A stretch of 64,000 nt of DNA from Candidatus Binatia bacterium (GTDB lineage Bacteria > Desulfobacterota > Binatia > UBA12015): NCBI GenBank assembly GCA_046327915.1, contig JAXLXO010000004.1, forward strand, positions 311,064 through 375,063, given 5' to 3'. Below, piece after piece: positions 13,370-43,898 of the stretch. A program made the position numbers and the translations under genes. Numbering within the stretch: position 1 is the stretch's first letter; each line of letters starts with the position of its first letter. The notes below the pieces were generated by a model that ran no database searches, was not told where the DNA came from, and saw only the letters and a program-made list of their open reading frames with translations.

Positions 13370-13846
13370 CTAGAACCAGCTCGTGTCCGTCATCGCGCCC
13401 GGCACCAGTCGCGCGGTGACGTCGTGCGCCTCGTCGCGCACCATGATGTCCTTGCCGTCGGTCCAGACGCGCACGCGCTGCTTCGGGTAGCCGTCGATGT
13501 CGAGCTTCAGGTAGCCCTCGCCGTCGACCGCGTACGTGCCGGTCTTGCGCGTCCTCTGGTCGTCGATGAAGCGCACGGTCGCGGTGAAGCTGCCGTCGCT
13601 GCCGAAGCGGACGCCGACGCCGCTGATCACGAAGAAGAGCGCGCCGCCGGCGTCGAGCGTGTGCCACGCCGTGCCGGGAAGCGCGGGCAGCACGTTCGAC
13701 TCCTGTGCGACGGCGGTGGCGTCCATCGCCGGCGCGCGCAGCACCGCCGCGCACACGAGCGCGAAAAGCACGATCCGTGCAGCCGTCCTCGCGGCGGCGC
13801 GCGCCGGTCGATCGACGGCAGGGAAGGAAGTCCGGTGGTCGGTCAT
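13370..13846 (-). CDS. hypothetical small secreted protein (last gene of nar supercluster)
   Basis: 158 aa. N-terminal hydrophobic signal ([19 protein letters not shown]) and normal composition. ATGA overlap with the TehA-like gene. The Arg-rich 5' extension of ORF 13370..14725 was rejected. Confidence 0.5.
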
Positions 13847-14907
13847 TGCGCGCTCCTCGCGTGCTGTCGAAGGATGGTGTTCAGCATTCCCGCGAACGTC
13901 ACCAGCCACGCCGCGAGCGCCACGAAGACGAACACGCGCGGGATCGCGAGCAGGAACGGCTCGTCGATCGCGTGCGCGAGCTTGAACGTGCACGTGGTGT
14001 ACATGCCGAGCGGGAAGACCATGCCCCAGTAGCCGGGCTCGTACGCGAGCGGGTAACGCCGCACGACGTGGCGCCAGACGCCCATCACGAACAGCATCGG
14101 GATCCACCACGTCGCCGTCGCCCAGAACAGCAGCGTGAGTCCCTTCAGGAAGGGCAGCAGCGACGCGAGCAGCGGATCGGACGCCGCGTTGCCGATCACG
14201 ATCGCGCCGGCCAGCGTCGAGATCGCCATCGCGCCGGTGTCGATCCAGTACGCGGGGCCGGCGTCGGCCGGCTCGAAGCGCAGGAACATGTAGCGGAAGA
14301 AGATCAGCCCGATGATCCAGACGTAGAGCATGCCGCCCGCGAGCCACAGGGCCAGCGTCAGGAACAGCACCTGGTGCTCGTATCCGGGGAAACGGTCGTA
14401 CACCTGGCCGCCGAGCAGGGACACTCCCTGCGTCGCGACGACCGCGACCAGCCATCCGCCGTTGAGCCCGCGCTCGATCGGCGGCTTCTGCTCGTCCACG
14501 GTGAGCAGGGCCAGCACGCCGTAGAGCAGCAGCACCCAGAGCACCAGCGCGAGCAGCCAGAGCGCGGTCGCGATCTCCGGCACGTGCACCACGATCAGCA
14601 GCTGCGCACCGAGCACGCACGTCCCGGCGACGATCGTGAAGTAGCCGACGCCGCGCGCGTGATTGCCGAGGTCCGCGCGCACCGCCGCCGGATACCGCAC
14701 GAGGCGCGCGAGGTAGAGCACCCACAGCACGACGTAGGCGATCACGTTGACGGCGAGCAGCGCGACCGCGACCGGCACGAAGCCGAGCAGCTTGCTCGCG
14801 ATCGAGACGATCCCGGTCGCCATGACCAGCGCGAAGTACGCGGGGTTGAGCGTCTCGAGCCCGCTCGCGGCGGCCTGTGCCTTGCCGCGATCGGCGGCGG
14901 CAGCCAT
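13843..14907 (-). CDS. TehA/TDT-family (SLAC1-like) anion channel/transporter
   Basis: 354 aa, about 10 TM helices, very hydrophobic, with a typical TDT-family helix pattern (…[13 protein letters not shown]…, …[11 protein letters not shown]…, …[13 protein letters not shown]…). The start codon is 5 nt after the cytochrome c stop. Confidence 0.65.
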
Positions 14908-14912
14908 CGCGC

Positions 14913-15281
14913 TCACGGCGTCGCTCCTGCCGTCCTGCGGAATGCTTCGAGGTACGACAGCAGCGCGTCGAGCTGCTCGCCGGACAGCGTGCCGCCGTAC
15001 GCCATCATCGCCGAGCCCGGGACGCCGTTCAGGATCGCGCCGCGCAGCCGCGCGGCATCCGCGTCGCGCCAGAATCCGGCCGATGCGAAGTCGGGCGGCC
15101 TCGGGATCATGGTCACGCCGGCCGGACCGTCGCCTCGTCCACCGTCGCCGTGGCAGAACGCGCACCGGCTGCGGAACAGATCGCCGCCGAGCGCGAGCTG
15201 CGCCGGATCGGCGGTCTGCGCGTCTGCGGTGTGCGCGACGGCCGACACGACCAGCAGCGCCAGTGCGACGCGGCGGATCAC
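14913..15281 (-). CDS. class I mono-haem cytochrome c
   Basis: 'CAFCHG' haem-binding motif, distal Met region 'GSAMMAYGG', signal peptide. GTG start with a GTGA overlap on the ppiC-like stop. Confidence 0.7.
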
Positions 15282-16093
15282 GAACACCCCTGCGTGCCGC
15301 ACTGGCACGACGACTCGCCGTGCGCGGCGTCGACCGTGCGTGCTTCGGCGTCCAGACCCTCGACGTCCGCGGCGGCCACCAGATCGCGCACGAATTCCGC
15401 GGCCGCGGCGCGCCAGCGGCGGTCGAGCAGCCGCTCGCGCGCGAGACCGCGCGCCTCGCGCCACTCGAGCGGACGTCCCGGCGCACGCTCGTCGAGGCGC
15501 ACCACGTGGTAGCCGAAGCGCGTCCGCACCGGCGCGGGACAGACGTCGCCAGGCGCGAGGTGCTGCAGCACCGCCGCGAACTCCGGAACCGTGTCGCGCG
15601 CCGTCACCTGCCCGAGGCTGCCGCCGCTCTGCGCCGACGAGCAGCCGGAACGCTCGCGCGCGAGGTCGGCGAAGCGCGACGGATCGCGCGCCAGCTCCGC
15701 GATGCACTCGGCCGCGGCGCTGCACGCGCGCTCGAGCGCCGCGGAATCCGACGGCGGCGCGAGGAAGAGGATGTGCGACGCCTCGAACAGGTCGGGCGTG
15801 CGGTCGAGCTCGGGATGGCTGTCGTGCTCGGCGCGGCAGTCCGACTCGCTCGGCTCGTCGACCGCGACGTGGCGCACGACCAGCTCGTCGATCGCGCGCT
15901 GGCAGGCGCTCTCGTCGCGCTCGTCCGCGGCGACCAGCCCTTCGCGCGCGGCCGTCTGGCGCAGCACCTCGCGCACCACCAGAGCGCGCGCCGCGCGCAG
16001 CTCCGCGTCCTCGCGGCTCGCCGCGCGATGGTACTGCATCTCGCGCAGCACCTCGTCGTCGCCGATCGCGACCGCGTTCACGCGGAGCGCCAT
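15278..16093 (-). CDS. PpiC/parvulin-type peptidyl-prolyl isomerase (NifM-like)
   Basis: C-terminal rotamase domain '…[55 protein letters not shown]'. Overlaps the narI 3' end by 16 nt. Confidence 0.65.
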
Positions 16094-16812
16094 CCCGGTC
16101 CCTTCCGCGTCCGCGCACGATACGGCTCGCGCACGATCTGGTAGCGGCGGCCGAGGTACCACACCGGCGCGCTCCAGATGTGGATCAGCCGCGTGAACGG
16201 CACCAGCAGCACCACCGTCAAGCCGAGGACGATGTGCAGCTTGTAGACCAGCGGGATCGGCAGCAGCAGCTCCCACGCGTCGGCGCGGAACGTCACCAGG
16301 CGCTGCGCCCAGAACGCGGCGTGAAGCAGCGTCTGTCCCGACACGTGGTCCGCCCACGAGGCCGGCAGCGTCGCGAGCCCGATCGCCAGCTGCACCCAGA
16401 TGATCACGAGGATCAGCACGTCGGACCAGCTGCTCGAGCGCAGCACGCGCGCGTCGAAGAGCCTTCGGTGCAGCAGGATCGTCGTGCCGATGAAGCAGAT
16501 GGTGCCCGAGATGCCGCCGGCGAAGACCTCGAGGACGGCGTGCTCCTGCACGGTGAAGCCGACGCGCGTGTAGAGCGACACCGGCGTCAGCATGCCGGCG
16601 ACGTGGCCGAGCACCAGCGCGATCGCGGCGACGTGGAAGATGTTGCTGCCCCACACCAGCTGCCGCTTGCGCAGCATCTCGCTCGACCCGCTGCGCCACG
16701 TGTACTGCTCGCGCTCGAAGCGCAGCCAGCTGCCGACGAGGAACACCGTCACGCAGACGTACGGGTAGATGCCGAACAGGAAGCGCTGCAGCAGCTCGCT
16801 CGCGACGCTCAC
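16078..16812 (-). CDS. narI: respiratory nitrate reductase gamma subunit
   Basis: 244 aa, 5 TM helices, conserved 'FLFGIYPYV' N-terminus and His ligands. GTG start overlapping the narJ stop (GTGA). Confidence 0.85.
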   Translation of the reverse strand: MSVASELLQRFLFGIYPYVCVTVFLVGSWLRFEREQYTWRSGSSEMLRKRQLVWGSNIFHVAAIALVLGHVAGMLTPVSLYTRVGFTVQEHAVLEVFAGGISGTICFIGTTILLHRRLFDARVLRSSSWSDVLILVIIWVQLAIGLATLPASWADHVSGQTLLHAAFWAQRLVTFRADAWELLLPIPLVYKLHIVLGLTVVLLVPFTRLIHIWSAPVWYLGRRYQIVREPYRARTRKGPGWRSA

Positions 16813-17480
16813 GAGCACCTCCCCGCGCGCGTCGCGGCCGCAGCGTCGGCCGCTCCCGCGCTGGTGAAGTCGACCACCGGCTCCTCCCACTCGCGGTCGA
16901 GGCGCTCGAGCTCGCTTTCCTCGGTCGCGTCGACGGCCTGCTCGACGTCGCGCAGCGCCGCGCGATCGACGGCGTCCCCCGCGAGATCGATCAGCGCCTC
17001 GAGAACCGCCGCGTACGGCGACAGGCGCAGCTCGAGCTTGCGCCGCAGCGCCGCGAGGATCGGCGCCGCGTCGTCGAGCAGCGGGCGCGCGACGCTCTCC
17101 GGCGCGAGCGACAGGAACTCGCACAGCAGCGGCAGGTAGTCGGGCAGCTCGGTGGTCGACGGCTCGAGGCCGTTCTCGACGTACAGGCGGCGCAGGTCGA
17201 CCATCGCCTGGCCGCGCTCGCGCGCCTCGCCGTGCACGTGCTCGAAGAGGTGCAGCGAGCACGCGCGGCCGTGATCGAAGGTCGCGACCCACGCCTCCTC
17301 GAGGTCGAGCAGGGAGCCTTCGCGGAATCCCGCGAGGAGTCGCGCGACGCCGTCGCGCGCGTGCGCGGAGAGCCGCGGCTCCGCGGCGACGCGACGCTCG
17401 ATCTCGTCGACCGCGGCGAGCAGGTCGCTGCTCGGGTAGAGCAGCAGCGCGCCCAGCACCTTGCAGCTCGCGAGGCTCAC
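16809..17480 (-). CDS. narJ: nitrate reductase molybdenum cofactor assembly chaperone
   Basis: 'MSLASCKVLGALLLYPSSDLL…' is a NarJ/TorD-family N-terminus. GTG start overlapping the narH stop (GTGA). Confidence 0.8.
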   Translation of the reverse strand: MSLASCKVLGALLLYPSSDLLAAVDEIERRVAAEPRLSAHARDGVARLLAGFREGSLLDLEEAWVATFDHGRACSLHLFEHVHGEARERGQAMVDLRRLYVENGLEPSTTELPDYLPLLCEFLSLAPESVARPLLDDAAPILAALRRKLELRLSPYAAVLEALIDLAGDAVDRAALRDVEQAVDATEESELERLDREWEEPVVDFTSAGAADAAAATRAGRCS

Positions 17481-19000
17481 ATGACCTCGCTCGGCGTCCG
17501 GCGCCCGGCGCCGCCGCCGAAGAAGACGCTGCCGCGCGAGTCGGGCGCGTCGCAGCCGTTGCCGAAGGTGAAGCCGCACGCGCCGCGCAGCTCGTAGGCG
17601 TCCTCCGCGAGCTCGCGATGGCTGGTCGGGATCACGAAGCGGTCCTCGTAGTTCGCGATCGCGAGCAGGCGGTACATCTCCTCGATCTGCTGCCGCGACA
17701 GCCCGACGCGCGCGAGTACCTCGTCGTTGTCGCGTCCCTCGACGTGGCGGTCGCGCATGAACACCCGCATCGCGAACATGCGCTCGAGGGCGCGCACGAT
17801 CGCGGGCTCGTCGCCGGCCGAGAGCAGGTTCGCGAGATAGCGCACCGGGATGCGCAGCTTGCGGACGTCGGGCAGCGCGCCGTCGAAGCCGATCGCGCCC
17901 GACTCCGCGGACGCCTGGATCGGGCTCAGCGGCGGGCAGTACCAGACCATCGGCAGCGTCCGGTACTCGGGGTGCAGCGGGAACGCGATGCCCCACTCGA
18001 CGGCGAGCTTCCACACCGGCGAGCGCTGCGCCGACTCGATCCACGCCTCGGGAACGCCCGCGTCGCGCGCCGCCTGCTGCACGTCGGGATCGTTCGGGTC
18101 GAGGAACATCTCGAGCTGGGCCGCGTGCAGGTCGCGCTCGTCCGGGGTCGCCGCCGCCTGCTCGATGCGGTCGGCGTCGTAGAGCATGACGCCGAGATAG
18201 CGGATGCGTCCGACGCAGGTCTCCGAGCACACCGTGGGCAGCCCGGACTCGATGCGCGGGTAGCAGAAGATGCACTTCTCGGCCTTGCCCGAGCGCCAGT
18301 TGTAGTAGATTTTCTTGTATGGACAGCCCGACAGGCACATGCGCCAGCCGCGGCACTTGTCCTGGTCGATGAGGACGATGCCGTCCTCCTCGCGCTTGTA
18401 GATCGAGCCCGACGGACACGACGCGACGCAGGTCGGGTTCAGGCAGTGCTCGCACAGGCGCGGCAGGTACATCATGAACGTGTTCTCGAACTGCGCGACC
18501 ATGTCCTTCTCGACGCCTTCGAGGTTGGCGTCGCGACTGCGGTCGGCGAACGCGCCGCCGAGGTCGTCCTCCCAGTTCGCGCTCCACGTCACGCGCTCCA
18601 TGTGCTTGCCGGTCAGCAGCGAGATCGGGCGCGCGACCGGCACGTCCTCCGACTCCGGCGCGGACTGCAGCGTGCCGTAGTCGAAGGTGTACGGCTCGTA
18701 GTAGTCGTCCACTTCGGGCATGTGCGGGTTCGCGAAGATCTGCGCGAGCACGCGGAAGCGTCCGCCGAGACGCGGCACGAGCTTGCCGTCGGCGCGCCGC
18801 ACCCAGCCGCCGCGCCAGCGGCCCTGGTTCTCCCACTCCTTCGGGTAGCCGACGCCGGGCTTGGTCTCGACGTTGTTGAACCACGCGTACTGCACGCCGT
18901 CGCGGTTGGTCCACACGTTCTTGCAGGTCACCGAGCAGGTGTGGCAGCCGATGCACTTGTCGAGGTTCAGCACCATCATGATCTGGGCACGAACCTTCAT
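17477..19000 (-). CDS. narH: respiratory nitrate reductase beta subunit
   Basis: 508 aa, with four FeS cysteine clusters (CIGCHTCSVTC, CEHCLNPTCVASC, CRGWRMCLSGC, CIFCYPR). ATGA overlap with narG. Confidence 0.9.
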   Translation of the reverse strand: MKVRAQIMMVLNLDKCIGCHTCSVTCKNVWTNRDGVQYAWFNNVETKPGVGYPKEWENQGRWRGGWVRRADGKLVPRLGGRFRVLAQIFANPHMPEVDDYYEPYTFDYGTLQSAPESEDVPVARPISLLTGKHMERVTWSANWEDDLGGAFADRSRDANLEGVEKDMVAQFENTFMMYLPRLCEHCLNPTCVASCPSGSIYKREEDGIVLIDQDKCRGWRMCLSGCPYKKIYYNWRSGKAEKCIFCYPRIESGLPTVCSETCVGRIRYLGVMLYDADRIEQAAATPDERDLHAAQLEMFLDPNDPDVQQAARDAGVPEAWIESAQRSPVWKLAVEWGIAFPLHPEYRTLPMVWYCPPLSPIQASAESGAIGFDGALPDVRKLRIPVRYLANLLSAGDEPAIVRALERMFAMRVFMRDRHVEGRDNDEVLARVGLSRQQIEEMYRLLAIANYEDRFVIPTSHRELAEDAYELRGACGFTFGNGCDAPDSRGSVFFGGGAGRRTPSEVM

Positions 19001-22000
19001 CTTGCTGCTCCCTGCGCCTCGTCGCGCGCCGGTCCGCTGCCCCAGCGCGGCTCGCCGAGCTTGCGGATGACGACGGTCTCGTCGCGGTTCGCGCCGATCG
19101 TTCCGTAGTAGTTCCAGCCGTAGCTCAGGTGCGCGTAGCCGCCGATCATGTGCGTCGGCTTCGGGATCACGCGCGTCACCGAGTTGTGGATGCCGCGCGT
19201 TCCGGTCGCCTGCGTCTGCGGCGTGGCCACCAGCTTCTCCTGCGCGTGGTACATCATGCAGGTGCCGCGCATGACGCGCTGGCTGACGATCGCGCGCGCC
19301 GCGACCGCGCCGTTCACGTTCACCGCCTCGATCCAGTCGTTGTCGGCGATTCCCGCCTCGCGCGCCTCGTCCTCGTTGAGCCAGATCACGGGGCCGCCGC
19401 GCGCCAGCGTGAGCATCAGCAGGTTCTCGGTGAACGAGCTGTGGATCGACCACTTCTGGTGCGGCGTCAGGAAGTTCAGCACCAGCGTGCCGGGACCGCG
19501 CAGCTTCGGATCGCGCAGGTCGTCGAGAGCCAGCGTGTCGAGCGGCGGACGATAGGTCGCGAGCGCCTCGCCGAAGGCGCGCATCCACAGGTGGTCCTGG
19601 TAGAGCTCCTGCCGTCCGGACAGCGTGCGCCACGGGATCAGCTCGTGCACGTTGGTGTAGAACGCGGTGTAGCTGACGGTCTCGGAGTCGACGCCGCTCC
19701 AGATCGGCGACGTGATCACTTTTCTCGGCTGGGCCACGAGGTCGGCGAAGCGGATCACCTCCTCGCTGCGCGACGCCGCGAGGTGCCGGTGCTGCCGTCC
19801 CGTCTGGCGCTCGACCGACGCCCACGCGCGCACCGCGACCTGGCCGTTGGTCTCGGGCGACAGCGTCAGCACGGTCTCGCAGGCCTCGACGTCGCTGACG
19901 ATGCGCGGACGGTCGCGCGCGATCTCGTCGCCGCTGTCGCCGTTGAGCGCGCGCAGCATCGCGACCTCGTCGGTCGCCGGCCACGCGAAGCCCTTGGCGC
20001 CGATGCCGGGCTTGTCGACCAGCGGGCCGAGCGCCGTGAAGCGCGCGTACGTGTCCGGGTAGTGGCGCTCGACCACCGCGACGCCGGGCATGGTCCTGCC
20101 GGGCACGGGGTCGCACTCGCCCTTCTTCCAGTCCTTGACGTCGTACGGCTGCGCGAGCTCGCCGGGCGCGTCGTGCTGCACCGGTACGAGCACCGCGTCG
20201 TGCTCGACGCCGAGATGACCCGCGGTGCACTCGGAGAAGCGCCGCGCGATCCCCTTGAAGATCTCCCAGTCGGTGCGCGCCTCCCACACCGGATCGACCG
20301 CGGCGCCGAGCGGGTGCACGAACGGATGCAGGTCCGTCGAGCTGAGGTCGTTCTTCTCGTACCAGGTCGCCGCCGGCAGGACGACGTCGGAGTACATGCA
20401 CGTGCTCGACATGCGGAAGTCGAGCGTGACGAGAAGGTCGAGCTTGCCCTCGGGCGCGTCGCTCTCCCACTCGATCTCGCGCGGCGGCTCGAGGCCGCGC
20501 TCGACGACGTCGCGCGCCTGCACCGCGTTCTTCGCGCCGAGCAGGTGCTTCAGGAAGTACTCGTGACCCTTCGCGCTCGAGCCGAGCAGGTTCGCGCGCC
20601 ACACGAAGAGCATGCGCGGGAAGCTGGTCGGATGGTCGGGGCGCTCGCTCGCGAGGCGCAGCGCGCCCGACTTCAGCGCGTCCGCGACGTGCGCGCCCGG
20701 CGTCGCGCCCGAAGCCGCGATGTCACGCCCCACCTGCAGCGGATTCTGCGCGAGCTGCGGCGACGTCGGCAGCCAGCCCATGCGCTCCGCGCGCACGTTG
20801 AAGTCGATCAGGCTGCCGCCCCAGTCGCCGTCGGGTGCGGTCGGCGACAGCATCTCCGCCGGCGTCACCGTCTCGTAGCGGAACTGGTCGGTGTGCGCGT
20901 AGAAGTACGAGGTCGTGTTCATCTGGCGCGGCGGACGCGTCCAGTCGAGCGCGAACGCGAGCGTCGACCAGCCGACCAGCGGACGGATCTTCTCCTGCCC
21001 GACGTAGTGCGCCCAGCCGCCGCCGGGCTTGCCGACACAGCCGCACAGCACGAGCAGGTTGATGATCGCCCGATACGTCGTGTCGGTGTGGTACGCCTGA
21101 TTGACGCCGCAGCCGATGATGACCTTGGCGCGGCCATCGGTCTTCTCGGCGCTGTGCGCGAACTCGCGTGCGAGGTTGATCGCGATGCGGCGGTCGACGC
21201 CGGTGATCGCCTCCTGCCACGCCGGCGTGAACGGACGATCGGCGTCGTCGTACGTCGCCTCGTCGCCGGGCTCGAGTCCGCGCGGGACGCCGTAGCTCGC
21301 CAGCATCAGGTCGAGCACCGTCGCGACCGGAACCTCGCCGTCGCGCAGCTTCAGGCGACGCACCGGAACGCTGCGCTCGACCACGTGATCGGGCGCCGAC
21401 GCCTCGAAGCGCGGGAACGCAACGTTGGCGAAGCCGTCGCGGCGCTCCGCGACGCTCAGCGCGAGCTCGACCTCGTGGCCGTCGCGCGCGTCGCGCTGCT
21501 CGAGGTTCCATTTCTCCCCCGGGCTCCAGCGGAAGCCGATCGAGCCGTTCGGCACCACGACGTCGCCGCTCTTCGCGTCGAGGCCGACCGTCTTCCAGTC
21601 CGGGTGCTCGTCCTGCGCGAGCGCGCCGTCGAAGTCGGCCGCGCGCAGCATTCGGCCGGGAACCCAGCGATCCCCTTGCCGGTCGAGACGCACCAGCATC
21701 GGCAGGTCGGAGAAGCGGCGCGCGTAGTCGACGAAGTACGGCACCTGCCGGTCGACCCAGAACTCCTTCAGCACGACGTGCCCGACCGCGAGCGCGAGCG
21801 CCGCGTCGGTGCGCTGCCGCGGCCGCACCCACAGGTCGGCGAACTTCGCCGCCTCGTTGAAGTCCGGTGAGACGACGACGGTCTTGGTGCCCTTGTAACG
21901 AGCCTCGACGTAGAAGTGCGCGTCGGGCGTGCGCGTCTGCGGCACGTTCGAGCCCCACAGCACGAGGAACGCGGCGTCGTACCAGGCGGCGCTCTCGGGC

Positions 22001-22710
22001 ACGTCGGTCTGCTCGCCCCAGGTCATCGGCGAGCTCGGCGGCAGGTCGCAGTACCAGTCGTAGAAGCTGAGGCAGGTGCCGCCGATCAGCGACAGGAAGC
22101 GCGTCCCGGCTGCGAACGACACCATCGAGAACGCGGGGATCGGCGTGAAGCCCGCGACGCGGTCCGGACCCCACTTCTCGATCGTGTGCACGGCGGCGGC
22201 GGCGATCATCTCGTTCGCCTCCTGCCACGACACGCGCACGAAGCCGCCGCGTCCGCGCACGCGCTTGTAGGACGCCGCGCGCTCCGGATCGTCGGCGATG
22301 CTGCGCCACGCCTCGACCGGATCCATCGCCGCGCGCGCCGCGCGCCACAGCTCGACCAGACGGCGGCGCACCAGCGGATACTTGACGCGGTTTCCGCTGT
22401 ACAGGTACCAGGACGCGCTCGCTCCGCGCGGACAGCCGCGCGGCTCGTGGTTCGGCAGGTCCGCCCGCGTGCGCGGGTAGTCGGTCGCCTGCATCTCCCA
22501 GGTGACGAGCCCGTTCTTGACGAACACCCGCCAGCTGCACGAGCCGGTGCAGTTCACGCCGTGCGTCGAGCGCACGATCTTGTCGTGGTCCCAGCGGTTC
22601 CGGTAGCCGTCCTCCCAGCTGCGGTCCTCGCGCGTGACGACGCCGAGATCGCCGGCGAACGTGCCGACGTTCTTGCGGAAGAACAGCAGACGGTCGAGCA
22701 GCAGGCTCAC
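18997..22710 (-). CDS. narG: respiratory nitrate reductase alpha subunit
   Basis: 1237 aa. N-terminus 'MSLLLDRLLFFRKNVGTFAGD…WEDGYRNRWDHDKIVRSTHGVNCTGSCSW' matches the NarG FeS0 H-x3-C-x3-C motif. Collinear with NarG throughout. Confidence 0.9.
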   Translation of the reverse strand: MSLLLDRLLFFRKNVGTFAGDLGVVTREDRSWEDGYRNRWDHDKIVRSTHGVNCTGSCSWRVFVKNGLVTWEMQATDYPRTRADLPNHEPRGCPRGASASWYLYSGNRVKYPLVRRRLVELWRAARAAMDPVEAWRSIADDPERAASYKRVRGRGGFVRVSWQEANEMIAAAAVHTIEKWGPDRVAGFTPIPAFSMVSFAAGTRFLSLIGGTCLSFYDWYCDLPPSSPMTWGEQTDVPESAAWYDAAFLVLWGSNVPQTRTPDAHFYVEARYKGTKTVVVSPDFNEAAKFADLWVRPRQRTDAALALAVGHVVLKEFWVDRQVPYFVDYARRFSDLPMLVRLDRQGDRWVPGRMLRAADFDGALAQDEHPDWKTVGLDAKSGDVVVPNGSIGFRWSPGEKWNLEQRDARDGHEVELALSVAERRDGFANVAFPRFEASAPDHVVERSVPVRRLKLRDGEVPVATVLDLMLASYGVPRGLEPGDEATYDDADRPFTPAWQEAITGVDRRIAINLAREFAHSAEKTDGRAKVIIGCGVNQAYHTDTTYRAIINLLVLCGCVGKPGGGWAHYVGQEKIRPLVGWSTLAFALDWTRPPRQMNTTSYFYAHTDQFRYETVTPAEMLSPTAPDGDWGGSLIDFNVRAERMGWLPTSPQLAQNPLQVGRDIAASGATPGAHVADALKSGALRLASERPDHPTSFPRMLFVWRANLLGSSAKGHEYFLKHLLGAKNAVQARDVVERGLEPPREIEWESDAPEGKLDLLVTLDFRMSSTCMYSDVVLPAATWYEKNDLSSTDLHPFVHPLGAAVDPVWEARTDWEIFKGIARRFSECTAGHLGVEHDAVLVPVQHDAPGELAQPYDVKDWKKGECDPVPGRTMPGVAVVERHYPDTYARFTALGPLVDKPGIGAKGFAWPATDEVAMLRALNGDSGDEIARDRPRIVSDVEACETVLTLSPETNGQVAVRAWASVERQTGRQHRHLAASRSEEVIRFADLVAQPRKVITSPIWSGVDSETVSYTAFYTNVHELIPWRTLSGRQELYQDHLWMRAFGEALATYRPPLDTLALDDLRDPKLRGPGTLVLNFLTPHQKWSIHSSFTENLLMLTLARGGPVIWLNEDEAREAGIADNDWIEAVNVNGAVAARAIVSQRVMRGTCMMYHAQEKLVATPQTQATGTRGIHNSVTRVIPKPTHMIGGYAHLSYGWNYYGTIGANRDETVVIRKLGEPRWGSGPARDEAQGAAR

Positions 22711-22817
22711 GGCGCCGGGCTCCGGTGAGCCGGACCCGTCGCGAACCGCGGAGCGCGATCGCCTGCCGAACGTTGCAGCTTCATCGCCGCCGCCAAGCTA
22801 CCACCGACCTGTCGATG

Positions 22818-22837
22818 CGCGAAGAACAGAATTCGCG
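22818..22837. promoter_or_regulatory. inverted repeat CGCGAA-N8-TTCGCG between nasA-like stop and narG start
   Basis: Seen directly: 'cgcgaagaacagaattcgcg', 2 nt after the nasA-like stop, in a 128-bp gap. Confidence 0.3.
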
Positions 22838-22838
22838 T

Positions 22839-25172
22839 TCACGCCGGAGTCTTCGTCGTGTCGCCGTACGTGCGGGACGAGAACGGCTCGTTGGTCGCTC
22901 CCGTCAGCTCCTCGAGCCGGCTGCGCAGCCAGCGCGGCGGCTCGCCGAAGCTCAGCCTCCGCAGCGCGACCGGCGACGACTTGAAGTGCGGCTGCTTGCT
23001 GACAGCATCGCGCGCGTACCACGTGTGCGTGTTGGCCGACTGGTCGGCGCCGCCGTAGTGGAACGGCGCGAACACCTCGCCACGGCGCACCGTGTCGACC
23101 ACCATCGCGATCGCCTCCGAGCGTCCGTGCGGCGAACGGATCTCGACCGCGTCGCCGAGCTCGATGCCGAGACCCGCCGCGTCCTCGGGGTGGATCTCCA
23201 CGTACACGGCCGGGGCGTGCGCGTTCAGCACGTCGGAGCGCGCCGTCTTGGTGCGGGTGTGGAAGTGGTAGACGAGCCGGCCGGTGTTGAGCAGCAGCGG
23301 ATACTCGTCGGAGACCGGATTCGGGTGCGCGTGCCAGTGCACCGGGCGAAGGATCGCCTTGCCGGCCGGATCGGCGCGCCGGTACTCCGCCGGCGACGTG
23401 CCGCGCCCGGTGTAGAAGTCGACGCCGAAGCTCTCGCAGGCGTCCGCGTCGGTCCAGAAGTGCAGATCCTCGTAGAGCCTCTCCGCCCCGCGCGGGTACT
23501 TCTCGTTGCAGGGCCAGCGCACCGCGCCCATCTCGAGGATCAGCTCGTACGTCATGCCGGAGTAGTCGCAGCCGCGGCCCTTCGAGACCTTGCGCCACTC
23601 GTCGAACGCCGCGCGCGGCTCCTGGTACGGCAGCAGCGACTTGCCGTCGCGGTCCTTGAAGCCGAGGCGGTTCGCGATCTCGACGAAGACGTCGAAGTCG
23701 CTGCGCGCCTCCCCCGGCGGGTCCACCGCCTTGAGCAGCAGATTGACGCTGCGATCCGCGTTGGTGACGCAGCCGCTCTTCTCGCCCCACATCGCCGCGG
23801 GGAAGTAGATGTCGGCGAAGTCGACCGTCTCGGCGTCGACGAACGGATCCTGCACGACGAGGAAGAGCTTGTTCAGGATCGCCGCCGTCCGGTTGCGGTC
23901 GGGCACGCTGACGATCGGATTGGTTCCGATCACCCACATGAACTCGATCTCGCCGCGCTCGGCCATCTCGAGCATGGTGAGGATGTCCTTCGGGTCCTCC
24001 GGCCGGAAGCGGTCGAAGTCGATGTTCCAGATCTCGCACAGCTCGCGCATCTGCGGCTCGCTGTGCGGATTCCGGTACGCGGGATACGAGCCGCCGGCTC
24101 CGGTCTCGCGGTTGTTCATCGCGGACGGCTGGCCCGCCATGAGCAGCGGACCGGTGCCCGGCTTGCCGATGGCGCCGGTCAGCAGGTGGACGACGTTGAT
24201 CAGCGACGACGCCGCGGTCGCGCCGATGCTCTGGTAGAAGCCCATCAGCGCGGTCGACACCATCTTCGGCGTCGTTCCGATCCACTCCGCCGCGGTCTCC
24301 AGCTGCGCCTGCGGGATGCCGCAGATCGCGGCGACGCGGTCGGGCGGATACTCGCGCGCCACGGCCGCGACGTCGTCGAACCCGATCGTGTGCTGCGCGA
24401 CGAAGTCACGGTCGACCTGGCCGCGCGCGATCAGCAGGTGGATGATCCCGTTCATCAGCGCGACGTTGGTTCCCACCTTCACCTGCAGATGAAGGTCGGC
24501 GCCCTGCCGAACCGTCGGGGTGGTGCGCGGATCGACCACGATGATCCGTCCGCCGTTCTTCTGCCGCGCCGACAGCATGCGCTCCCAGAGCACCGTCTGC
24601 GTCTCGGCGACGTTGTGTCCGTAGAGGCAGAGCAGGTCGGCCTGGTCGACGTCGGCATAGGATGCGACCGGCCCGTCCGAGCCGAAGGTCGCCGTCAGCG
24701 CCGTCGCCGCGCTCGACGTGCAGAGCCTGGTGTTGCCGTCGATGTTCGACGACTGCAGCCCGCCGCGCCACATCTTCGCCAGCGCGTAGAACTCCTCGAG
24801 CATCAGCTGGCCGGAGCTGTAGCAGGCGAGATTCTGGTGCCCGGACGCCCACGCCGCGCGAAACTTCTCCACGAAGAAGTCCATCGCCTCGGACCAGCCG
24901 ACCGGCTGCAGCGGGTCGGACTTCCGGCGGCGGATCATCGGGGTCGTGCCGCGCCGCTTCGCACCGTTGGCGATCCAGCAGTGCTCGCCCTTCGGGCCGA
25001 GATGTCCGGCGTTGACGGGATGGCTAGTCGTGCCGCGAACGCCGACGATCGCGCGGTCCTTCACCGCGATCTCCAGGCCGCAGCCGTTCGAGCACAGCAG
25101 ACAGGCGGAGTGAACCCAGGCGTCGGGCTCTCCCTGGATGCCGACGTTCACGTCTCTTCGAGGCTGCATCAC
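22839..25172 (-). CDS. cytoplasmic MopB-family nitrate reductase catalytic subunit (assimilatory NasA/NarB-type)
   Basis: 777 aa, no Tat signal. N-terminal 4Fe-4S 'CLLCSNGCG'. NasA/NarB-like segments 'FMWVIGTNP', 'NTGRLVYHFHTRTKT' and 'FAPFHYGG'. Confidence 0.7.
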   Translation of the reverse strand: MMQPRRDVNVGIQGEPDAWVHSACLLCSNGCGLEIAVKDRAIVGVRGTTSHPVNAGHLGPKGEHCWIANGAKRRGTTPMIRRRKSDPLQPVGWSEAMDFFVEKFRAAWASGHQNLACYSSGQLMLEEFYALAKMWRGGLQSSNIDGNTRLCTSSAATALTATFGSDGPVASYADVDQADLLCLYGHNVAETQTVLWERMLSARQKNGGRIIVVDPRTTPTVRQGADLHLQVKVGTNVALMNGIIHLLIARGQVDRDFVAQHTIGFDDVAAVAREYPPDRVAAICGIPQAQLETAAEWIGTTPKMVSTALMGFYQSIGATAASSLINVVHLLTGAIGKPGTGPLLMAGQPSAMNNRETGAGGSYPAYRNPHSEPQMRELCEIWNIDFDRFRPEDPKDILTMLEMAERGEIEFMWVIGTNPIVSVPDRNRTAAILNKLFLVVQDPFVDAETVDFADIYFPAAMWGEKSGCVTNADRSVNLLLKAVDPPGEARSDFDVFVEIANRLGFKDRDGKSLLPYQEPRAAFDEWRKVSKGRGCDYSGMTYELILEMGAVRWPCNEKYPRGAERLYEDLHFWTDADACESFGVDFYTGRGTSPAEYRRADPAGKAILRPVHWHAHPNPVSDEYPLLLNTGRLVYHFHTRTKTARSDVLNAHAPAVYVEIHPEDAAGLGIELGDAVEIRSPHGRSEAIAMVVDTVRRGEVFAPFHYGGADQSANTHTWYARDAVSKQPHFKSSPVALRRLSFGEPPRWLRSRLEELTGATNEPFSSRTYGDTTKTPA

Positions 25173-25413
25173 CTTCTCCGTGTTCGTCCTGCGGGACGAC
25201 GCTTCTCGACGACGCCGGGGACGGCGTCGAGAGGTCTTGCAACGCGGGCCCCGGATCTCTCCGCCGACCTTCGGCCGAGTCTTCGCCCGGCGTGAGCGCC
25301 TTGTATTGCGGAATCGCGCGGCGATCTTTCAGAATCCTGCGCGACGTCGAGGCGGCCGCGAGAGATGCGAAGCTGGAACCGGCTCCACGCGGCGTGCTAC
25401 AGCGGCGTCCCCG

Positions 25414-26766
25414 ATGGCCAGCGCATCCGAGGCGTCAAGCAGTGCTGCGGCGGCCCGCGAGGAAGAGCGGACCGAGCTGGCGGCGGATCGCCGGGATCTC
25501 GTCCGGCTCGCTCTCGTCGCGATTCCCGCCGGAGCGCTGACCGGCCTCCTGGGTGCCGCCTTCCGCATGGTGCTCGACGCCGCCGGGACGTGGCGTCTCG
25601 ATCTCGTGCGGTGGTCGAGCACCCTCGGTGCGTGGGGCGTGGCCGTGCCGATCGTCGTCGTCGCGGCATGCGCGGCGATCGCACGCGCGCTCGTGCGGAT
25701 CGCGCCGGTGGCCGGCGGCAGCGGCGTGCAGCACGTCGAGGCCGTCGCGCGCGGACAGGCCGAGCCGGCACCACCCGTGGTGCTGCCCGTCAAGTTCATC
25801 GGAGGATCGCTCGCGCTGGGCTCGGGCCTCGCGCTCGGACGCGAAGGACCGACGGTGCAGATGGGCGCGGTCGTCGGCGAGGCGCTCGCGCAGTGGGCCC
25901 GGCTGCCGATCGAGGACGTGCGCCGCATGTCCACCGCGGTCGCGGGCGCCGGCCTCGGCGTGGCGTTCTCGGCGCCGCTCGGCGGCGCGACGTTCGCGTT
26001 CGAGGAGGTCGCGCGGCGCTTCGATCTGCGGCTCGTCGTCGCGACCCTGCTGTCCGGCGCCACGGCGGCCGCGGTCGCGTGGTCGCTGATCGGCAATGCG
26101 CCCGACTTCGCGGTCCGTCCGCCGCCGCCGCCCGCGTGGCACGTCGCCGTCCCCGTACTCGTGTTCGGCCTGCTGCTCGGCCTCGCGGGCGTGGCCTACA
26201 ACAGGCTCGTGGTCGCGCTGCTCGATGCGGCCGACCGCTGGCCGCGCGTGCCGGCCGAGGCGCGTGCCGCGCTCGTCGGCGCGCTCTTCGGCCTGCTCCT
26301 CTGGGTCGAGCCGTCGCTGGTGGGCGGCGGCGACGCCGTCAATCAACGGATCCTCGACGGCGCGGTGCCGATCGCCACGATCGGCACGATCGCCGTGGCG
26401 CGCTGGCTGCTCGGCCCCGTCAGCTACGCTCCTGGCGTTCCGGGCGGCCTGTTCGCGCCGCTGCTGCTGGTCGGGTCGGCCGCCGGAGCGCTGTTCGCGT
26501 CGGCGGGGAACCACCTCGTGCCGGCGCTCGGGCTCGACCCGACGGCCTTCGCCATCGTCGGGATGGCGACGTTCTTCGCGGCCGTCGTGCGGGCGCCGCT
26601 CACCGGCATCGTGCTCATCGTCGAGATGACCGCGACGACGACCCAGGTGGTGCCGATGCTCGCGGCATCGACGGCCGCGGTGATCGCGGCGACGCTCCTG
26701 CGTGGCGAGCCGGTCTACGACACGCTGCGCCTGCGCATGCTGAGCCGCACGACCGACCGCCGCTGA
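25414..26766 (+). CDS. ClC-family anion channel/H+ antiporter
   Basis: 'GSGVQ', 'GREGP', 'GGLFAP' selectivity-filter-like motifs and about 10-12 TM helices. Start chosen at MASASE (ORF 25138.. has an Arg-rich junk 5' part). Divergent from the nasA-like gene. Confidence 0.75.
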   Translation: MASASEASSSAAAAREEERTELAADRRDLVRLALVAIPAGALTGLLGAAFRMVLDAAGTWRLDLVRWSSTLGAWGVAVPIVVVAACAAIARALVRIAPVAGGSGVQHVEAVARGQAEPAPPVVLPVKFIGGSLALGSGLALGREGPTVQMGAVVGEALAQWARLPIEDVRRMSTAVAGAGLGVAFSAPLGGATFAFEEVARRFDLRLVVATLLSGATAAAVAWSLIGNAPDFAVRPPPPPAWHVAVPVLVFGLLLGLAGVAYNRLVVALLDAADRWPRVPAEARAALVGALFGLLLWVEPSLVGGGDAVNQRILDGAVPIATIGTIAVARWLLGPVSYAPGVPGGLFAPLLLVGSAAGALFASAGNHLVPALGLDPTAFAIVGMATFFAAVVRAPLTGIVLIVEMTATTTQVVPMLAASTAAVIAATLLRGEPVYDTLRLRMLSRTTDRR

Positions 26767-27706: not shown

Positions 27707-29085
<1,379 letters not shown>

Positions 29086-29089
<4 letters not shown>

Positions 29090-43791: not shown

Positions 43792-43898
43792 TTCGTGTTC
43801 CCTCCGCCGGTCCGAGCCCGTCCGGCCGCGCCGTCCTAACAGCTCTGTGAAGATCCAGTCAACAGACTTGTCAGGACGCCGCCGCGGTCGCTTCCGCG

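What the first reader, a model, noticed from the sequence alone, without database searches (positions are those of the whole stretch)
13370..26766. Nitrate-reduction supercluster: cytoplasmic NasA-type reductase + narGHJI + PpiC + cytochrome c + TehA/SLAC1-like channel, with a divergent ClC and no NarK
Ten consecutive minus-strand genes run from 25172 down to 13370 with only short gaps or 4-nt overlaps. A ClC channel is encoded divergently. Textbook nar loci carry a NarK-family MFS nitrate/nitrite porter, and I see none here. Instead, two different anion-channel superfamilies bracket the locus. Both superfamilies (ClC, and SLAC1/TehA) contain nitrate-conducting members in plants. This looks like a non-canonical nitrate import/nitrite export module.
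Basis: partly seen in the sequence, partly recalled or inferred. Interest (0 to 1): 0.75.

Follow-up and report, generated by a model that had tools for sequence, protein, structure and literature searches.

The report
Nitrate reductase operon with SLAC1-type transporter
This is a normal respiratory nitrate reductase operon, except that the usual NarK nitrate/nitrite porter is replaced by an uncharacterised relative of the plant SLAC1 anion channel, and that relative sits next to nitrate reductase genes in many bacterial phyla, so it is a strong and testable candidate for a new nitrate/nitrite transporter family.

Summary
I count nine co-directional minus-strand genes, not ten. They are a NapA/NasA-clade molybdoenzyme, narG, narH, narJ, narI, a PpiC-type isomerase, a monohaem cytochrome c, a SLAC1/TehA-fold membrane protein and a small secreted protein. 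From narG onward each junction is a 4-nt overlap. A ClcA-type gene lies divergently upstream.

No NarK, other MFS, FNT or Nrt transporter is present in the 64 kb.

The SLAC1-type gene is the real finding. In 80 species-level loci of its family, 25 carry narGHI, usually with this gene directly after narI. About 30 carry a second, NasC-like nitrate reductase complex. RIC, Rrf2, Crp, NarK-type MFS and FNT genes recur nearby. In the closest nar operons, the slot after narI holds this gene (three cases) or a NarK (one case).

The ClC claim is weak. It has the chloride-type Ser filter, and none of 80 homologue loci carries nar genes. One related nar operon does carry a different ClC in the same position.

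The "NasA" label is uncertain, because orthologues sit beside DyP–encapsulin and stress genes rather than nitrogen genes.

Verdict: an ordinary Nar operon with a probably unstudied transporter. Transport has not been shown, and whether narK is absent from the whole genome was not tested.

The parts
22839..25172 (-). Cytoplasmic NapA/NasA-clade molybdopterin oxidoreductase, 777 aa ('Mo777'). Nitrate reductase activity is plausible but not established.
   Evidence: Pfam finds Molybdop_Fe4S4 + Molybdopterin + Molydop_binding. All NCBIfam equivalogs (Fdh-alpha, NasC, NasA, NapA) score below cutoff. The best solved structure is D. desulfuricans monomeric NapA at E=1e-111, with the Mo-ligand Cys (RLCTSSA) and the N-terminal Cys cluster aligned. 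No twin-arginine signal is visible in the N-terminus. Homologues are 70-77% identical across phyla, and JGI names some of them ferredoxin-nitrate reductase.
22711..22838 (.). 128-bp gap between the molybdoenzyme gene and narG. It is the only non-overlapping junction in the chain.
   Evidence: Coordinates and sequence. No terminator-like or promoter-like site was found there, and there is no Rfam hit.
18997..22710 (-). narG, the catalytic alpha subunit of a cytoplasm-facing respiratory nitrate reductase
   Evidence: TIGR01580 scores 1909 bits against a cutoff of 1084. The N-terminus MSLLLDRLLFF...HGVNCTGSCSW carries the H-x3-C-x3-C motif and no twin-arginine signal.
17477..19000 (-). narH, the iron-sulfur beta subunit
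   Evidence: TIGR01660 scores 918 bits against a cutoff of 524. Its ATG overlaps the narG stop by 4 nt.
16809..17480 (-). narJ, the assembly chaperone
   Evidence: TIGR00684 scores 115 bits against a cutoff of 59. It overlaps its neighbour by 4 nt.
16078..16812 (-). narI, the membrane dihaem b quinol-oxidising gamma subunit
   Evidence: TIGR00351 scores 246 bits against a cutoff of 106.
15278..16093 (-). PpiC/parvulin-type peptidyl-prolyl isomerase with no visible signal peptide and a Cys-rich C-terminus. It is a Nar accessory protein.
   Evidence: Pfam Rotamase at E=9e-20; sequence. Homologues (36-40% identity) lie directly after narI in P. aeruginosa narK1K2GHJI and in Methylovirgula.
14913..15281 (-). 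Periplasmic monohaem class I cytochrome c associated with NarI
   Evidence: Pfam Cytochrome_CBB3/Cytochrom_C. A signal-peptide-like N-terminus and a CAFCH haem motif are visible. In locus L172 the orthologous domain (52% identity) is fused to the C-terminus of NarI.
13843..14916 (-). SLAC1/TehA-fold (TDT superfamily) anion transporter of a nitrate-reductase-linked subfamily. It is the candidate nitrite/nitrate transporter.
   Evidence: PF03595 at E=5e-49. The AlphaFold model has pLDDT 87.7, and the 24 best PDB matches are all SLAC1 or H. influenzae TehA at TM 0.62-0.84. It is not a member of the TehA/Mae1 subfamily model (TIGR00816, 97 bits against a cutoff of 237).
13370..13846 (-). Small (158 aa) protein with an N-terminal hydrophobic signal or anchor. 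Function unknown. It is the last gene of the operon.
   Evidence: No Pfam or NCBIfam hit. Only 24 relatives were found among 1.84 billion representative proteins. It was not found in the 80 TehA loci. Its ATG overlaps the upstream stop by 4 nt.
25173..25413 (.). Divergent intergenic region between the molybdoenzyme gene and the ClC gene
   Evidence: Sequence. No sigma-70-like promoter, no sigma-54 or FNR-box match in this region, and no Rfam hit.
25414..26766 (+). ClcA-type Cl-/H+ exchanger, divergently transcribed. Its membership of the module is doubtful.
   Evidence: Voltage_CLC at E=8e-82. The ClcA equivalog scores 323 bits against a cutoff of 350. Ser107, Glu148, Glu203 and Tyr445 are conserved in the alignment with E. 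coli ClcA. None of 80 homologue loci has nar genes. One related nar operon has a different ClC in the same place.

Best explanation
The locus is one operon for a cytoplasm-facing, quinol-dependent respiratory nitrate reductase, NarGHJI.

It carries four accessory genes:
- a cytoplasmic PpiC-type folding helper, as in Pseudomonas;
- a periplasmic monohaem cytochrome c that works with NarI;
- a SLAC1/TehA-fold anion transporter;
- a small secreted protein of unknown role.

NarG reduces nitrate inside the cell, so nitrate must enter the cell and toxic nitrite must leave it. I propose that the SLAC1-type protein does this job here in place of NarK.

Its most likely role is to conduct nitrite out of the cell, down the inside-negative membrane potential. 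It may also carry nitrate, by exchange or by proton coupling.

What is shown: gene identities, translational coupling, the SLAC1 fold, and conserved linkage of this subfamily to two unrelated nitrate reductase systems and to nitrosative-stress genes.

What is inferred: the substrate, the direction of transport, and whether the protein acts as a channel or as a carrier.

The upstream molybdoenzyme and the divergent ClC are neighbours whose functional link to the operon is not established.
For: - narG, narH, narJ and narI all pass NCBIfam equivalog cutoffs.
- NarG has the cytoplasmic-type N-terminus.
- 4-nt overlaps run from narG to the last gene.
- The fold is SLAC1/TehA: pLDDT 87.7, and the top 24 PDB hits are all SLAC1 or TehA.
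- The family is large and well conserved, at 50-70% identity across Acidobacteriota, Chloroflexota, Planctomycetota, Myxococcota, Pseudomonadota, Ignavibacteriota and anammox bacteria.
- In 80 species-representative loci, 25 carry narG/H/I. The TehA-like gene typically lies directly after narI on the same strand, for example in L006, L022, L038, L047, L067 and L077.
- About 30 of the 80 loci carry a NasC-like MopB (769 bits to NasC) with a DmsB-like FeS protein, a Rieske protein and a QmoC-like membrane subunit immediately upstream.
- Recurrent neighbours are RIC/ScdA (9 loci), Rrf2 (7), Crp/Fnr (7), NarK-family MFS (11) and FNT (3).
- Closest nar operons: L170 (NarG 75%), L172 (72%) and L177 (67%) have the TehA-like gene after narI. 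L173 (69%) has a NarK-family MFS there instead.
- Several of these contigs, 14-21 kb long, show no other transporter in the operon (L172, L177, L039, L077).
- Nitrobacter genome annotation already lists a TDT-family transporter alongside NarK, NxrX (a PpiC) and cytochrome c as putative nitrite/nitrate transporters of the nxr system (PMC12815253).
- From my own knowledge, not tested here: plant SLAC1/SLAH channels conduct nitrate, and yeast Ssu1 of the same superfamily exports sulfite.
Against: - No transport measurement exists for any member that I could find.
- The family co-occurs with NarK-type MFS (11 loci) and with FNT (3 loci). L067 has all three. So it is not simply a NarK substitute and may do something different.
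- A pure channel cannot import nitrate against the membrane potential, so nitrate entry in this organism stays unexplained unless a narK lies elsewhere in the genome. That could not be checked.
- About 25 of the 80 loci show no nitrogen-oxide gene nearby. Many of these are short contigs, but Ciceribacter (L178) has 10 kb on each side with no nar gene.
- In Natrinema the neighbour is a different molybdenum oxidoreductase, so another oxyanion such as sulfite remains possible.
- The 80 loci were chosen as the best matches to a nar-linked query, which enriches for nar-linked relatives.
Confidence: 0.65

Rival explanations
1. The ClC and the SLAC1-type protein together form a two-channel nitrate-import and nitrite-export module that replaces NarK.
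For: - Both genes flank the nar genes in the window.
- The closest nar operon, L170 (NarG 75%), also has a ClcA-type gene divergent from narG plus a TehA-like gene after narI.
- The two ClCs are only 37% identical, which is less than the window ClC shares with 80 unlinked homologues. So the adjacency probably arose twice.
- From my own knowledge: ClC-ec1 can carry nitrate with poor proton coupling.
Against: - None of 80 loci of ClC homologues (42-57% identity, 31 of them longer than 8 kb) has nar, TehA-like, NarK or Mo777 genes.
- None of the 80 TehA-like loci has a ClC.
- L172, L173 and L177 have no ClC.
- The selectivity filter has Ser, not the Pro of nitrate-selective AtCLCa. The gating and proton glutamates and Tyr445 are canonical for a Cl-/H+ exchanger.
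- My inference: both a channel and a 2-anion/1-proton exchanger would drive anions out of an energised cell, so neither explains nitrate import.
Confidence: 0.2
2. The SLAC1/TDT protein has nothing to do with nitrogen oxyanions. It would be a tellurite, selenite or sulfite resistance protein, or a C4-dicarboxylate transporter, that merely travels with nar genes.
For: - Source annotations call it 'tellurite resistance/C4-dicarboxylate transporter family protein'.
- In Natrinema plasmids it follows a different molybdopterin-dependent oxidoreductase.
- From my own knowledge: Nar enzymes can reduce tellurite and selenate.
Against: - It is very distant from E. coli TehA (hhalign probability 28%, 82 aligned columns).
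- It scores below the TehA/Mae1 subfamily cutoff.
- Its linkage is to two different nitrate reductase types plus RIC, Rrf2, NarK and FNT genes, and not to dicarboxylate metabolism or tehB.
- It is positionally interchangeable with a NarK-family gene in close relatives.
Confidence: 0.1
3. The cluster is a Nitrobacter-like nitrite oxidoreductase system, or a reversible NXR/NAR, rather than a nitrate reductase. The argument is that it shares the NxrX-type PpiC, the class I cytochrome c and the TDT transporter.
For: - The accessory set matches what is described for Nitrobacter nxr clusters.
- JGI labels some homologues 'nitrate reductase / nitrite oxidoreductase alpha subunit'.
Against: - NarG scores far above the narG equivalog cutoff.
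- The gene order is narGHJI-ppiC as in denitrifying Pseudomonas, not nxrA-nxrX-nxrB.
- The related locus L172 continues into nosZ and nosD, which are denitrification genes.
- The window contains no carbon-fixation genes or other traits of a nitrite oxidiser.
Confidence: 0.05

Closest known systems
Pseudomonas aeruginosa narK1-narK2-narGHJI-ppiC operon (also the Methylovirgula MFS-narGHJI-ppiC operon)
   Same: The core is the same narGHJI, followed directly by a PpiC-type isomerase that is 36-40% identical to the window protein.
   Different: Those operons begin with NarK-family MFS porters. The window has none in 64 kb. Instead it adds a cytochrome c, a SLAC1-type transporter and a small secreted protein downstream.
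Nitrobacter nxr gene cluster (NxrA/B, NxrX, NarJ, NarI, cytochrome c class I, NarK and a TDT-family transporter)
   Same: It combines a cytoplasm-facing NarG-type enzyme with a PpiC-type protein, a class I cytochrome c and a TDT/SLAC1-family gene that is annotated as a putative nitrite/nitrate transporter (PMC12815253).
   Different: In Nitrobacter the enzyme runs in the oxidative direction, the PpiC gene lies between nxrA and nxrB (from my own knowledge), and a NarK is also present. I could not test whether the Nitrobacter TDT protein is an orthologue of the window protein.
Plant SLAC1/SLAH anion channels and Haemophilus influenzae TehA (solved structures)
   Same: The ten-helix fold is the same. 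Foldseek gives TM 0.62-0.84 to 7EN0, 8J1E, 3M7x and 8EN9, and the protein is a Pfam PF03595 member. From my own knowledge, the plant members conduct nitrate.
   Different: Sequence identity is only 14-17%, and there is no phmmer hit to any PDB chain. The protein is below the cutoff of the TehA/Mae1 subfamily model. Its genomic linkage to nitrate reductases is a property of this bacterial subfamily and has not been reported for TehA.
NarK/NarU nitrate/nitrite porters (MFS)
   Same: They occupy the same operon position, directly after narI, in the related locus L173 and in L054 and L074. The presumed physiological task is the same.
   Different: The fold is unrelated. The two proteins often co-occur (11 of 80 loci), so their roles may be complementary rather than identical.
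ClC-ec1 (E. coli ClcA) and Arabidopsis CLCa
   Same: The window ClC keeps Ser107, Glu148, Glu203 and Tyr445 of ClC-ec1.
   Different: It lacks the Pro that replaces Ser107 in nitrate-selective CLCa (from my own knowledge). It is only 31% identical to ClcA and scores just below the equivalog cutoff.
Monomeric NapA of Desulfovibrio desulfuricans, and the NarB/NasC assimilatory nitrate reductases
   Same: This is the best structural relative of the upstream molybdoenzyme (E=1e-111). The Mo-ligand Cys and the [4Fe-4S] motif are conserved.
   Different: There is no export signal, no adjacent nitrite reductase and no electron-donor subunit. All equivalog scores are below cutoff. Orthologues lie beside DyP peroxidase and encapsulin, catalase/OsmC, or AhpC/protoglobin.

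Membership tests
Respiratory nitrate reductase NarGHJI (cytoplasm-facing) | All four subunits pass curated equivalog models | tested here: met
   narG scores 1909 bits (cutoff 1084), narH 918 (524), narJ 115 (59) and narI 246 (106).
Respiratory nitrate reductase NarGHJI (cytoplasm-facing) | NarG N-terminus has the H-x3-C-x3-C cluster motif and no functional twin-arginine export signal | tested here: met
   The N-terminus reads MSLLLDRLLFFRKN...HGVNCTGSCSW. Nitr_red_alph_N covers residues 4-40.
SLAC1/TehA (Pfam PF03595, TDT superfamily) | Full-length match to the family profile above the gathering score | tested here: met
   167.6 bits against a cutoff of 27.9, covering profile positions 2-331 of 331.
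SLAC1/TehA (Pfam PF03595, TDT superfamily) | Ten-helix SLAC1/TehA fold | tested here: met
   The model has pLDDT 87.7 and pTM 0.87. Foldseek ranks 1-24 are all SLAC1 or TehA, at TM 0.62-0.84.
SLAC1/TehA (Pfam PF03595, TDT superfamily) | Pore-occluding Phe (F450 in SLAC1, F262 in HiTehA) | not tested
   The tools returned no residue-level structural alignment. An invariant VFPLGMY motif (F301) exists in alignment A1. From memory, it resembles the FP motif that carries the gate Phe.
TehA/Mae1 'tdt' subfamily (TIGR00816) | Score above the subfamily cutoff | tested here: not met
   97 bits against a cutoff of 237. Profile comparison with E. coli TehA gives probability 28% over 82 columns.
NarK/NarU nitrate/nitrite porter (MFS) | An MFS/NarK-family gene in or near the operon | tested here: not met
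   tblastn with E. coli NarK gives a best E-value of 2.3 in the 64 kb. No MFS_1 hit appears in any called gene. The rest of the genome was not available.
ClcA-type Cl-/H+ exchanger | Selectivity-filter Ser, gating Glu, internal proton Glu and central Tyr | tested here: met
   S107, E148, E203 and Y445 are invariant in alignment A2 with E. coli ClcA. The equivalog NF003640 scores 323 bits, just below its cutoff of 350.
Nitrate-selective CLC (AtCLCa type) | Pro in place of the filter Ser (GPGIP) | tested here: not met
   The window has GGSGV, so Ser is retained. The Pro criterion itself comes from my own knowledge.
Assimilatory nitrate reductase NasA/NasC/NarB | Score above an equivalog cutoff | tested here: not met
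   NasC scores 404 bits (cutoff 1100), NasA_Halo 384 (1000), NapA 326 (904) and Fdh-alpha 472 (666).
Assimilatory nitrate reductase NasA/NasC/NarB | Mo-ligand Cys of the Nap/Nas type, rather than the Sec/Cys-His of formate dehydrogenases | tested here: met
   RLCTSSA aligns with RLCMASA of D. desulfuricans NapA.
Assimilatory nitrate reductase NasA/NasC/NarB | Genomic linkage to nitrite reductase, nitrate uptake or an electron-donor subunit | tested here: not met
   None is present in the window. Five orthologue contexts show DyP + encapsulin (three), catalase/OsmC, or AhpC/protoglobin, and no nir or nrt genes.
Nitrobacter-type NXR cluster | The alpha subunit belongs to the NxrA clade | not tested
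   No Nitrobacter sequence could be fetched. The named relatives in the hit list are annotated as nitrate reductase alpha subunits.

The most novel reading that the evidence does not exclude
The nar-linked SLAC1/TDT subfamily is a third, widespread class of prokaryotic nitrate/nitrite transporter, alongside NarK-type MFS and FNT/NirC. It can serve cytoplasmic nitrate reductases without NarK. It would also represent the ancestral physiological function of the fold that plants later used for the SLAC1/SLAH nitrate channels.
Probability: 0.35. Interest if true: 0.75.

Novelty: new variant of a known kind. Interest (0 to 1): 0.55.

Why it matters
Cytoplasm-facing nitrate reductases depend on moving nitrate in and nitrite out. 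The only established routes are NarK/NarU (MFS), NirC (FNT) and the Nrt ABC systems.

The native role of bacterial SLAC1/TehA homologues is still unknown, even though TehA was the structural template for the plant guard-cell channel.

The subfamily described here has these properties:
- it has thousands of members;
- it is 50-70% identical across phyla;
- it sits directly after narI, or after a second NasC-like reductase complex;
- it is surrounded by nitrite and NO stress genes.

Together these give a concrete hypothesis that can be tested genetically. Cultured carriers exist, for example Cognatiluteimonas sedimenti and Mesorhizobium strains.

If the hypothesis is confirmed, this gene should be scored in metagenomic surveys of denitrification and nitrite accumulation. 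It would also link plant nitrate channels to a bacterial respiratory function.

The rest of the locus (narGHJI and ppiC) is ordinary.

Tried and rejected
- **Exact-match lookup of NarH.** Nothing is on record. The organism is not in the collections, and its closest NarG is 75% identical. Taxonomy could not be assigned.
- **Regulatory signals.** I found no sigma-70-like promoter and only one terminator-like site, which lies inside a gene. There is no sigma-54 promoter above chance. No FNR box lies in the two upstream regions; all matches fall inside genes. There is no Rfam element, including no Moco riboswitch; the only hit is a sub-threshold nhaA-I match inside the AraC gene.
- **Sequence search of the SLAC1-type protein against PDB.** No hit. 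Fold comparison was needed instead.
- **Literature.** Seven searches for TehA, TDT or SLAC1 together with nitrate reductase or nitrite terms found only the Nitrobacter annotation statement and no experiment. The Nitrobacter genome paper itself is not held.
- **An error of mine, corrected.** I first read the ClC as lacking Tyr445. The alignment with E. coli ClcA showed that Tyr445 is conserved.
- **The 158-aa protein.** An exhaustive profile search gave only 24 weak or rare relatives and no clue to function.
- **Encapsulin cargo idea for the molybdoenzyme.** I considered it because DyP–encapsulin operons sit next to its orthologues. I see no cargo-peptide-like C-terminus. The idea was not pursued.
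- **NXR reading.** Rejected on gene order and on the narG equivalog score.

Full report
**Observation**

The window is 72% G+C, so raw ORF lists are unreliable. I mapped genes by third-position GC and by start codons next to the upstream stop.

Nine genes lie head to tail on the minus strand between 25172 and 13370. Pfam and NCBIfam identify them as:
- a MopB molybdoenzyme, 22839-25172
- narG, 18997-22710
- narH, 17477-19000
- narJ, 16809-17480
- narI, 16078-16812
- a PpiC-type rotamase, 15278-16093
- a class I cytochrome c, 14913-15281
- a SLAC1/PF03595 protein, 13843-14916
- a 158-aa protein without a family, 13370-13846

From narG onward every junction can be read as a 4-nt ATGA/GTGA overlap, which is the signature of one translationally coupled operon. 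Only the molybdoenzyme is set apart, by 128 bp.

A Voltage_CLC gene is divergent. Its ORF opens at 25138, but coding signal and homologue alignment place the start near 25414.

Otherwise the description is accurate.

**Is NarK absent?**

tblastn with E. coli NarK (fetched) finds nothing in the 64 kb; the best E-value is 2.3. Pfam scans of about 50 called genes find no MFS, FNT, Nrt or nitrite reductase.

The flanks encode an AraC regulator, a MarC protein, a short-chain dehydrogenase (SDR), a sigma-54 two-component pair, ABC-2 transporters, sulfatases and other proteins. The claim holds for the window. It cannot be extended to the genome.

**The core enzyme**

All four Nar subunits pass equivalog cutoffs. 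NarG has the cytoplasmic-type N-terminus with the HGVNCTGSCSW motif and no twin-arginine signal. Nitrate is therefore reduced inside the cell.

The PpiC gene after narI is not unusual. Homologues at 36-40% identity occupy the same place in P. aeruginosa narK1K2GHJI and in Methylovirgula.

The cytochrome c has a signal-peptide-like N-terminus and a CAFCH motif. In the related locus L172 the orthologous domain (52% identity) is fused to the C-terminus of NarI. That fusion argues that the free cytochrome in the window works with NarI on the periplasmic side.

**The SLAC1-type protein**

- It matches PF03595 end to end.
- It falls below the TehA/Mae1 subfamily cutoff.
- It is barely alignable with E. 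coli TehA.
- It has no sequence hit in PDB.
- An AlphaFold model built from 23 homologues is confident (pLDDT 87.7). Its 24 best PDB matches are all plant SLAC1 or H. influenzae TehA, at TM 0.62-0.84 and 14-17% identity.

It therefore has the SLAC1/TehA fold but belongs to a separate subfamily. That subfamily is very large: about 8000 hits at E below 1e-10, with the top 120 at 54-70% identity, from many phyla.

**Synteny test**

I fetched 80 species-representative genomic loci of this subfamily with 10-kb flanks. I then searched them with the window's proteins and clustered all neighbouring ORFs.

- Twenty-five loci carry narG/H/I. The typical order is [dihaem cytochrome c]-narG-narH-narJ-narI-[NarK-type MFS]-SLAC1-type, on one strand.
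- About 30 loci carry a different set directly upstream of the SLAC1-type gene: a QmoC-like membrane protein, a NasC-like MopB (769 bits to the NasC model, below cutoff), a DmsB-like FeS protein and a Rieske protein.
- Recurrent further neighbours are the di-iron repair protein RIC/ScdA (9 loci), Rrf2 regulators (7), Crp/Fnr regulators (7), NarK-family MFS (11), FNT nitrite/formate channels (3), hemerythrin and an NnrS-like protein.
- In a neighbour-joining tree, nar-linked and NasC-linked members are interspersed. The window's protein groups with L170, L171, L172, L177 and L027.

**The closest nar operons give the sharpest evidence**

| Locus | NarG identity | Gene after narI | Other notes |
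|---|---|---|---|
| L170 | 75% | SLAC1-type | divergent ClC upstream of narG |
| L172 | 72% | SLAC1-type | NarI fused to cytochrome c; nosZ/nosD follow |
| L177 | 67% | SLAC1-type | |
| L173 | 69% | NarK-family MFS | no SLAC1-type gene |

Either a NarK or this protein fills the same slot.

**Mechanism**

Two unrelated nitrate reductase systems share this neighbour. What they have in common is the substrate, nitrate, and the product, nitrite.

The stress genes nearby (RIC, and an Rrf2 regulator of the NsrR kind) point to nitrite and NO toxicity.

The superfamily contains anion efflux proteins: SLAC1, and yeast Ssu1 for sulfite. This is from my own knowledge.

An inside-negative membrane potential would push an anion out through a channel. 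I therefore favour nitrite export as the primary role, with nitrate conduction or exchange as a possibility.

Substrate, direction and mode of action are all inferred. Frequent co-occurrence with NarK and FNT shows that the protein is not simply redundant with them. How nitrate enters this cell remains open.

**Literature**

Nitrobacter genome descriptions list a TDT-family transporter, with NarK, NxrX (a PpiC) and a class I cytochrome c, as putative nitrite/nitrate transporters (PMC12815253). The idea therefore exists at the level of annotation.

I found no experimental test and no description of the cross-phylum linkage. The library lacks most subscription journals.

**The ClC**

It aligns with E. 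coli ClcA with Ser107, Glu148, Glu203 and Tyr445 all conserved. It is therefore a canonical Cl-/H+ exchanger and lacks the Pro of nitrate-selective plant CLCa.

None of 80 metagenomic loci of its homologues (42-57% identity) has nar, SLAC1-type, NarK or Mo777 genes. None of the 80 SLAC1-type loci has a ClC.

Against this, L170 has a ClcA-type gene in the same divergent position. It is only 37% identical to the window's ClC, which suggests two independent juxtapositions. I rate a functional link as possible but unproven.

**The upstream molybdoenzyme**

Its nearest solved relative is monomeric NapA of D. desulfuricans (E=1e-111), with the Mo-ligand Cys conserved. It has no export signal.

It passes no nitrate reductase equivalog. 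Its orthologues are 70-77% identical across phyla. Their neighbours are DyP peroxidase plus encapsulin (three contexts), catalase/OsmC (Archangium) or AhpC/protoglobin. They are never next to nir, nrt or nar genes.

'NasA-type' is therefore a family resemblance and not an established function. Its adjacency to narG appears specific to this genome.

**Verdict**

This is an ordinary NarGHJI-PpiC operon. Its unusual feature is a SLAC1-fold transporter of a nitrate-reductase-linked subfamily in place of NarK.

It is a new variant of a known kind. It is moderately interesting because it gives a widespread, unstudied protein family a specific and testable role.

Noticed in passing
Related loci, e.g. 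L002:5383-11020, L009:5183-11068, L066:81-4824, L070:1-5771: About 30 of the 80 SLAC1-type loci carry a conserved cluster directly upstream. Its parts are a QmoC-like membrane protein (about 374 aa, no Pfam hit), a NasC-like MopB (769 bits, below cutoff), a DmsB-like 4Fe-4S protein and an AioB-like Rieske protein with a twin-arginine-like N-terminus. The SLAC1-type gene follows, and often RIC. This looks like an undescribed membrane-linked NasC-type nitrate reductase complex.
   Followed up: partly
L164:6437-10337, L165:6158-10337, L167:6041-10310, L168:6041-10310; also L163:9023-12337: Orthologues of the window's upstream molybdoenzyme (73-75% identical) lie immediately after a DyP peroxidase and encapsulin (Linocin_M18) gene pair in two independent genome contexts. 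A third context has DyP nearby. Other contexts have catalase/OsmC or AhpC/protoglobin. This suggests an oxidative or nitrosative stress role rather than nitrate assimilation.
   Followed up: partly
L172:11026-12078: NarI is fused to a C-terminal monohaem cytochrome c domain that is 52% identical to the window's separate cytochrome c gene. The same contig continues into nosZ and nosD.
   Followed up: yes
L170:1740-3086 versus window 25414-26766: Two ClcA-type genes that are only 37% identical occupy the same divergent position upstream of nar operons whose NarG proteins are 75% identical. The adjacency probably arose twice.
   Followed up: partly
L179:8331-11032 (Natrinema sp. DC36 plasmid); similar hits in other haloarchaeal plasmids: Haloarchaeal megaplasmids carry a homologue (44-46% identity) directly after a 'molybdopterin-dependent oxidoreductase' of about 510 aa, with a ric gene nearby. 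The pairing of this transporter with a molybdenum enzyme therefore extends to archaea and to a different enzyme type.
   Followed up: no
window 38305-46279: This stretch holds four sulfatase genes (38305-39720, 39717-41111, 41108-42628, 44753-46279), a GH10 xylanase-family gene (42625-43743) and a TetR regulator (43935-44642). It looks like a locus for degrading sulfated polysaccharides.
   Followed up: no
window 46896-48932: A 678-aa protein fuses a queuine tRNA-ribosyltransferase (TGT) domain to a C-terminal Methyltransf_30 (MnmC-like) domain.
   Followed up: no
window 27707-30567: A sigma-54-dependent response regulator and a HAMP histidine kinase lie about 1 kb beyond the ClC gene. No sigma-54 promoter match was found upstream of the nar genes, so no link could be drawn.
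   Followed up: partly
window, whole: The FNR-box-like pattern TTGATNNNNATCAA, allowing up to 2 mismatches, occurs 11 times against 2.5 expected, and no shuffle out of 100 reached 11. All matches lie inside coding regions and most contain GATC or CGATC. This is probably a codon or oligonucleotide bias and not binding sites.
   Followed up: no
P0362: The rare 158-aa family of the last operon gene has one relative of 1717 aa in which the domain is repeated about 18 times.
   Followed up: no
window 9501-11633 and 31795-34032: Two large membrane proteins give weak YfhO-family matches on either side of the nar region. Function unknown.
   Followed up: no
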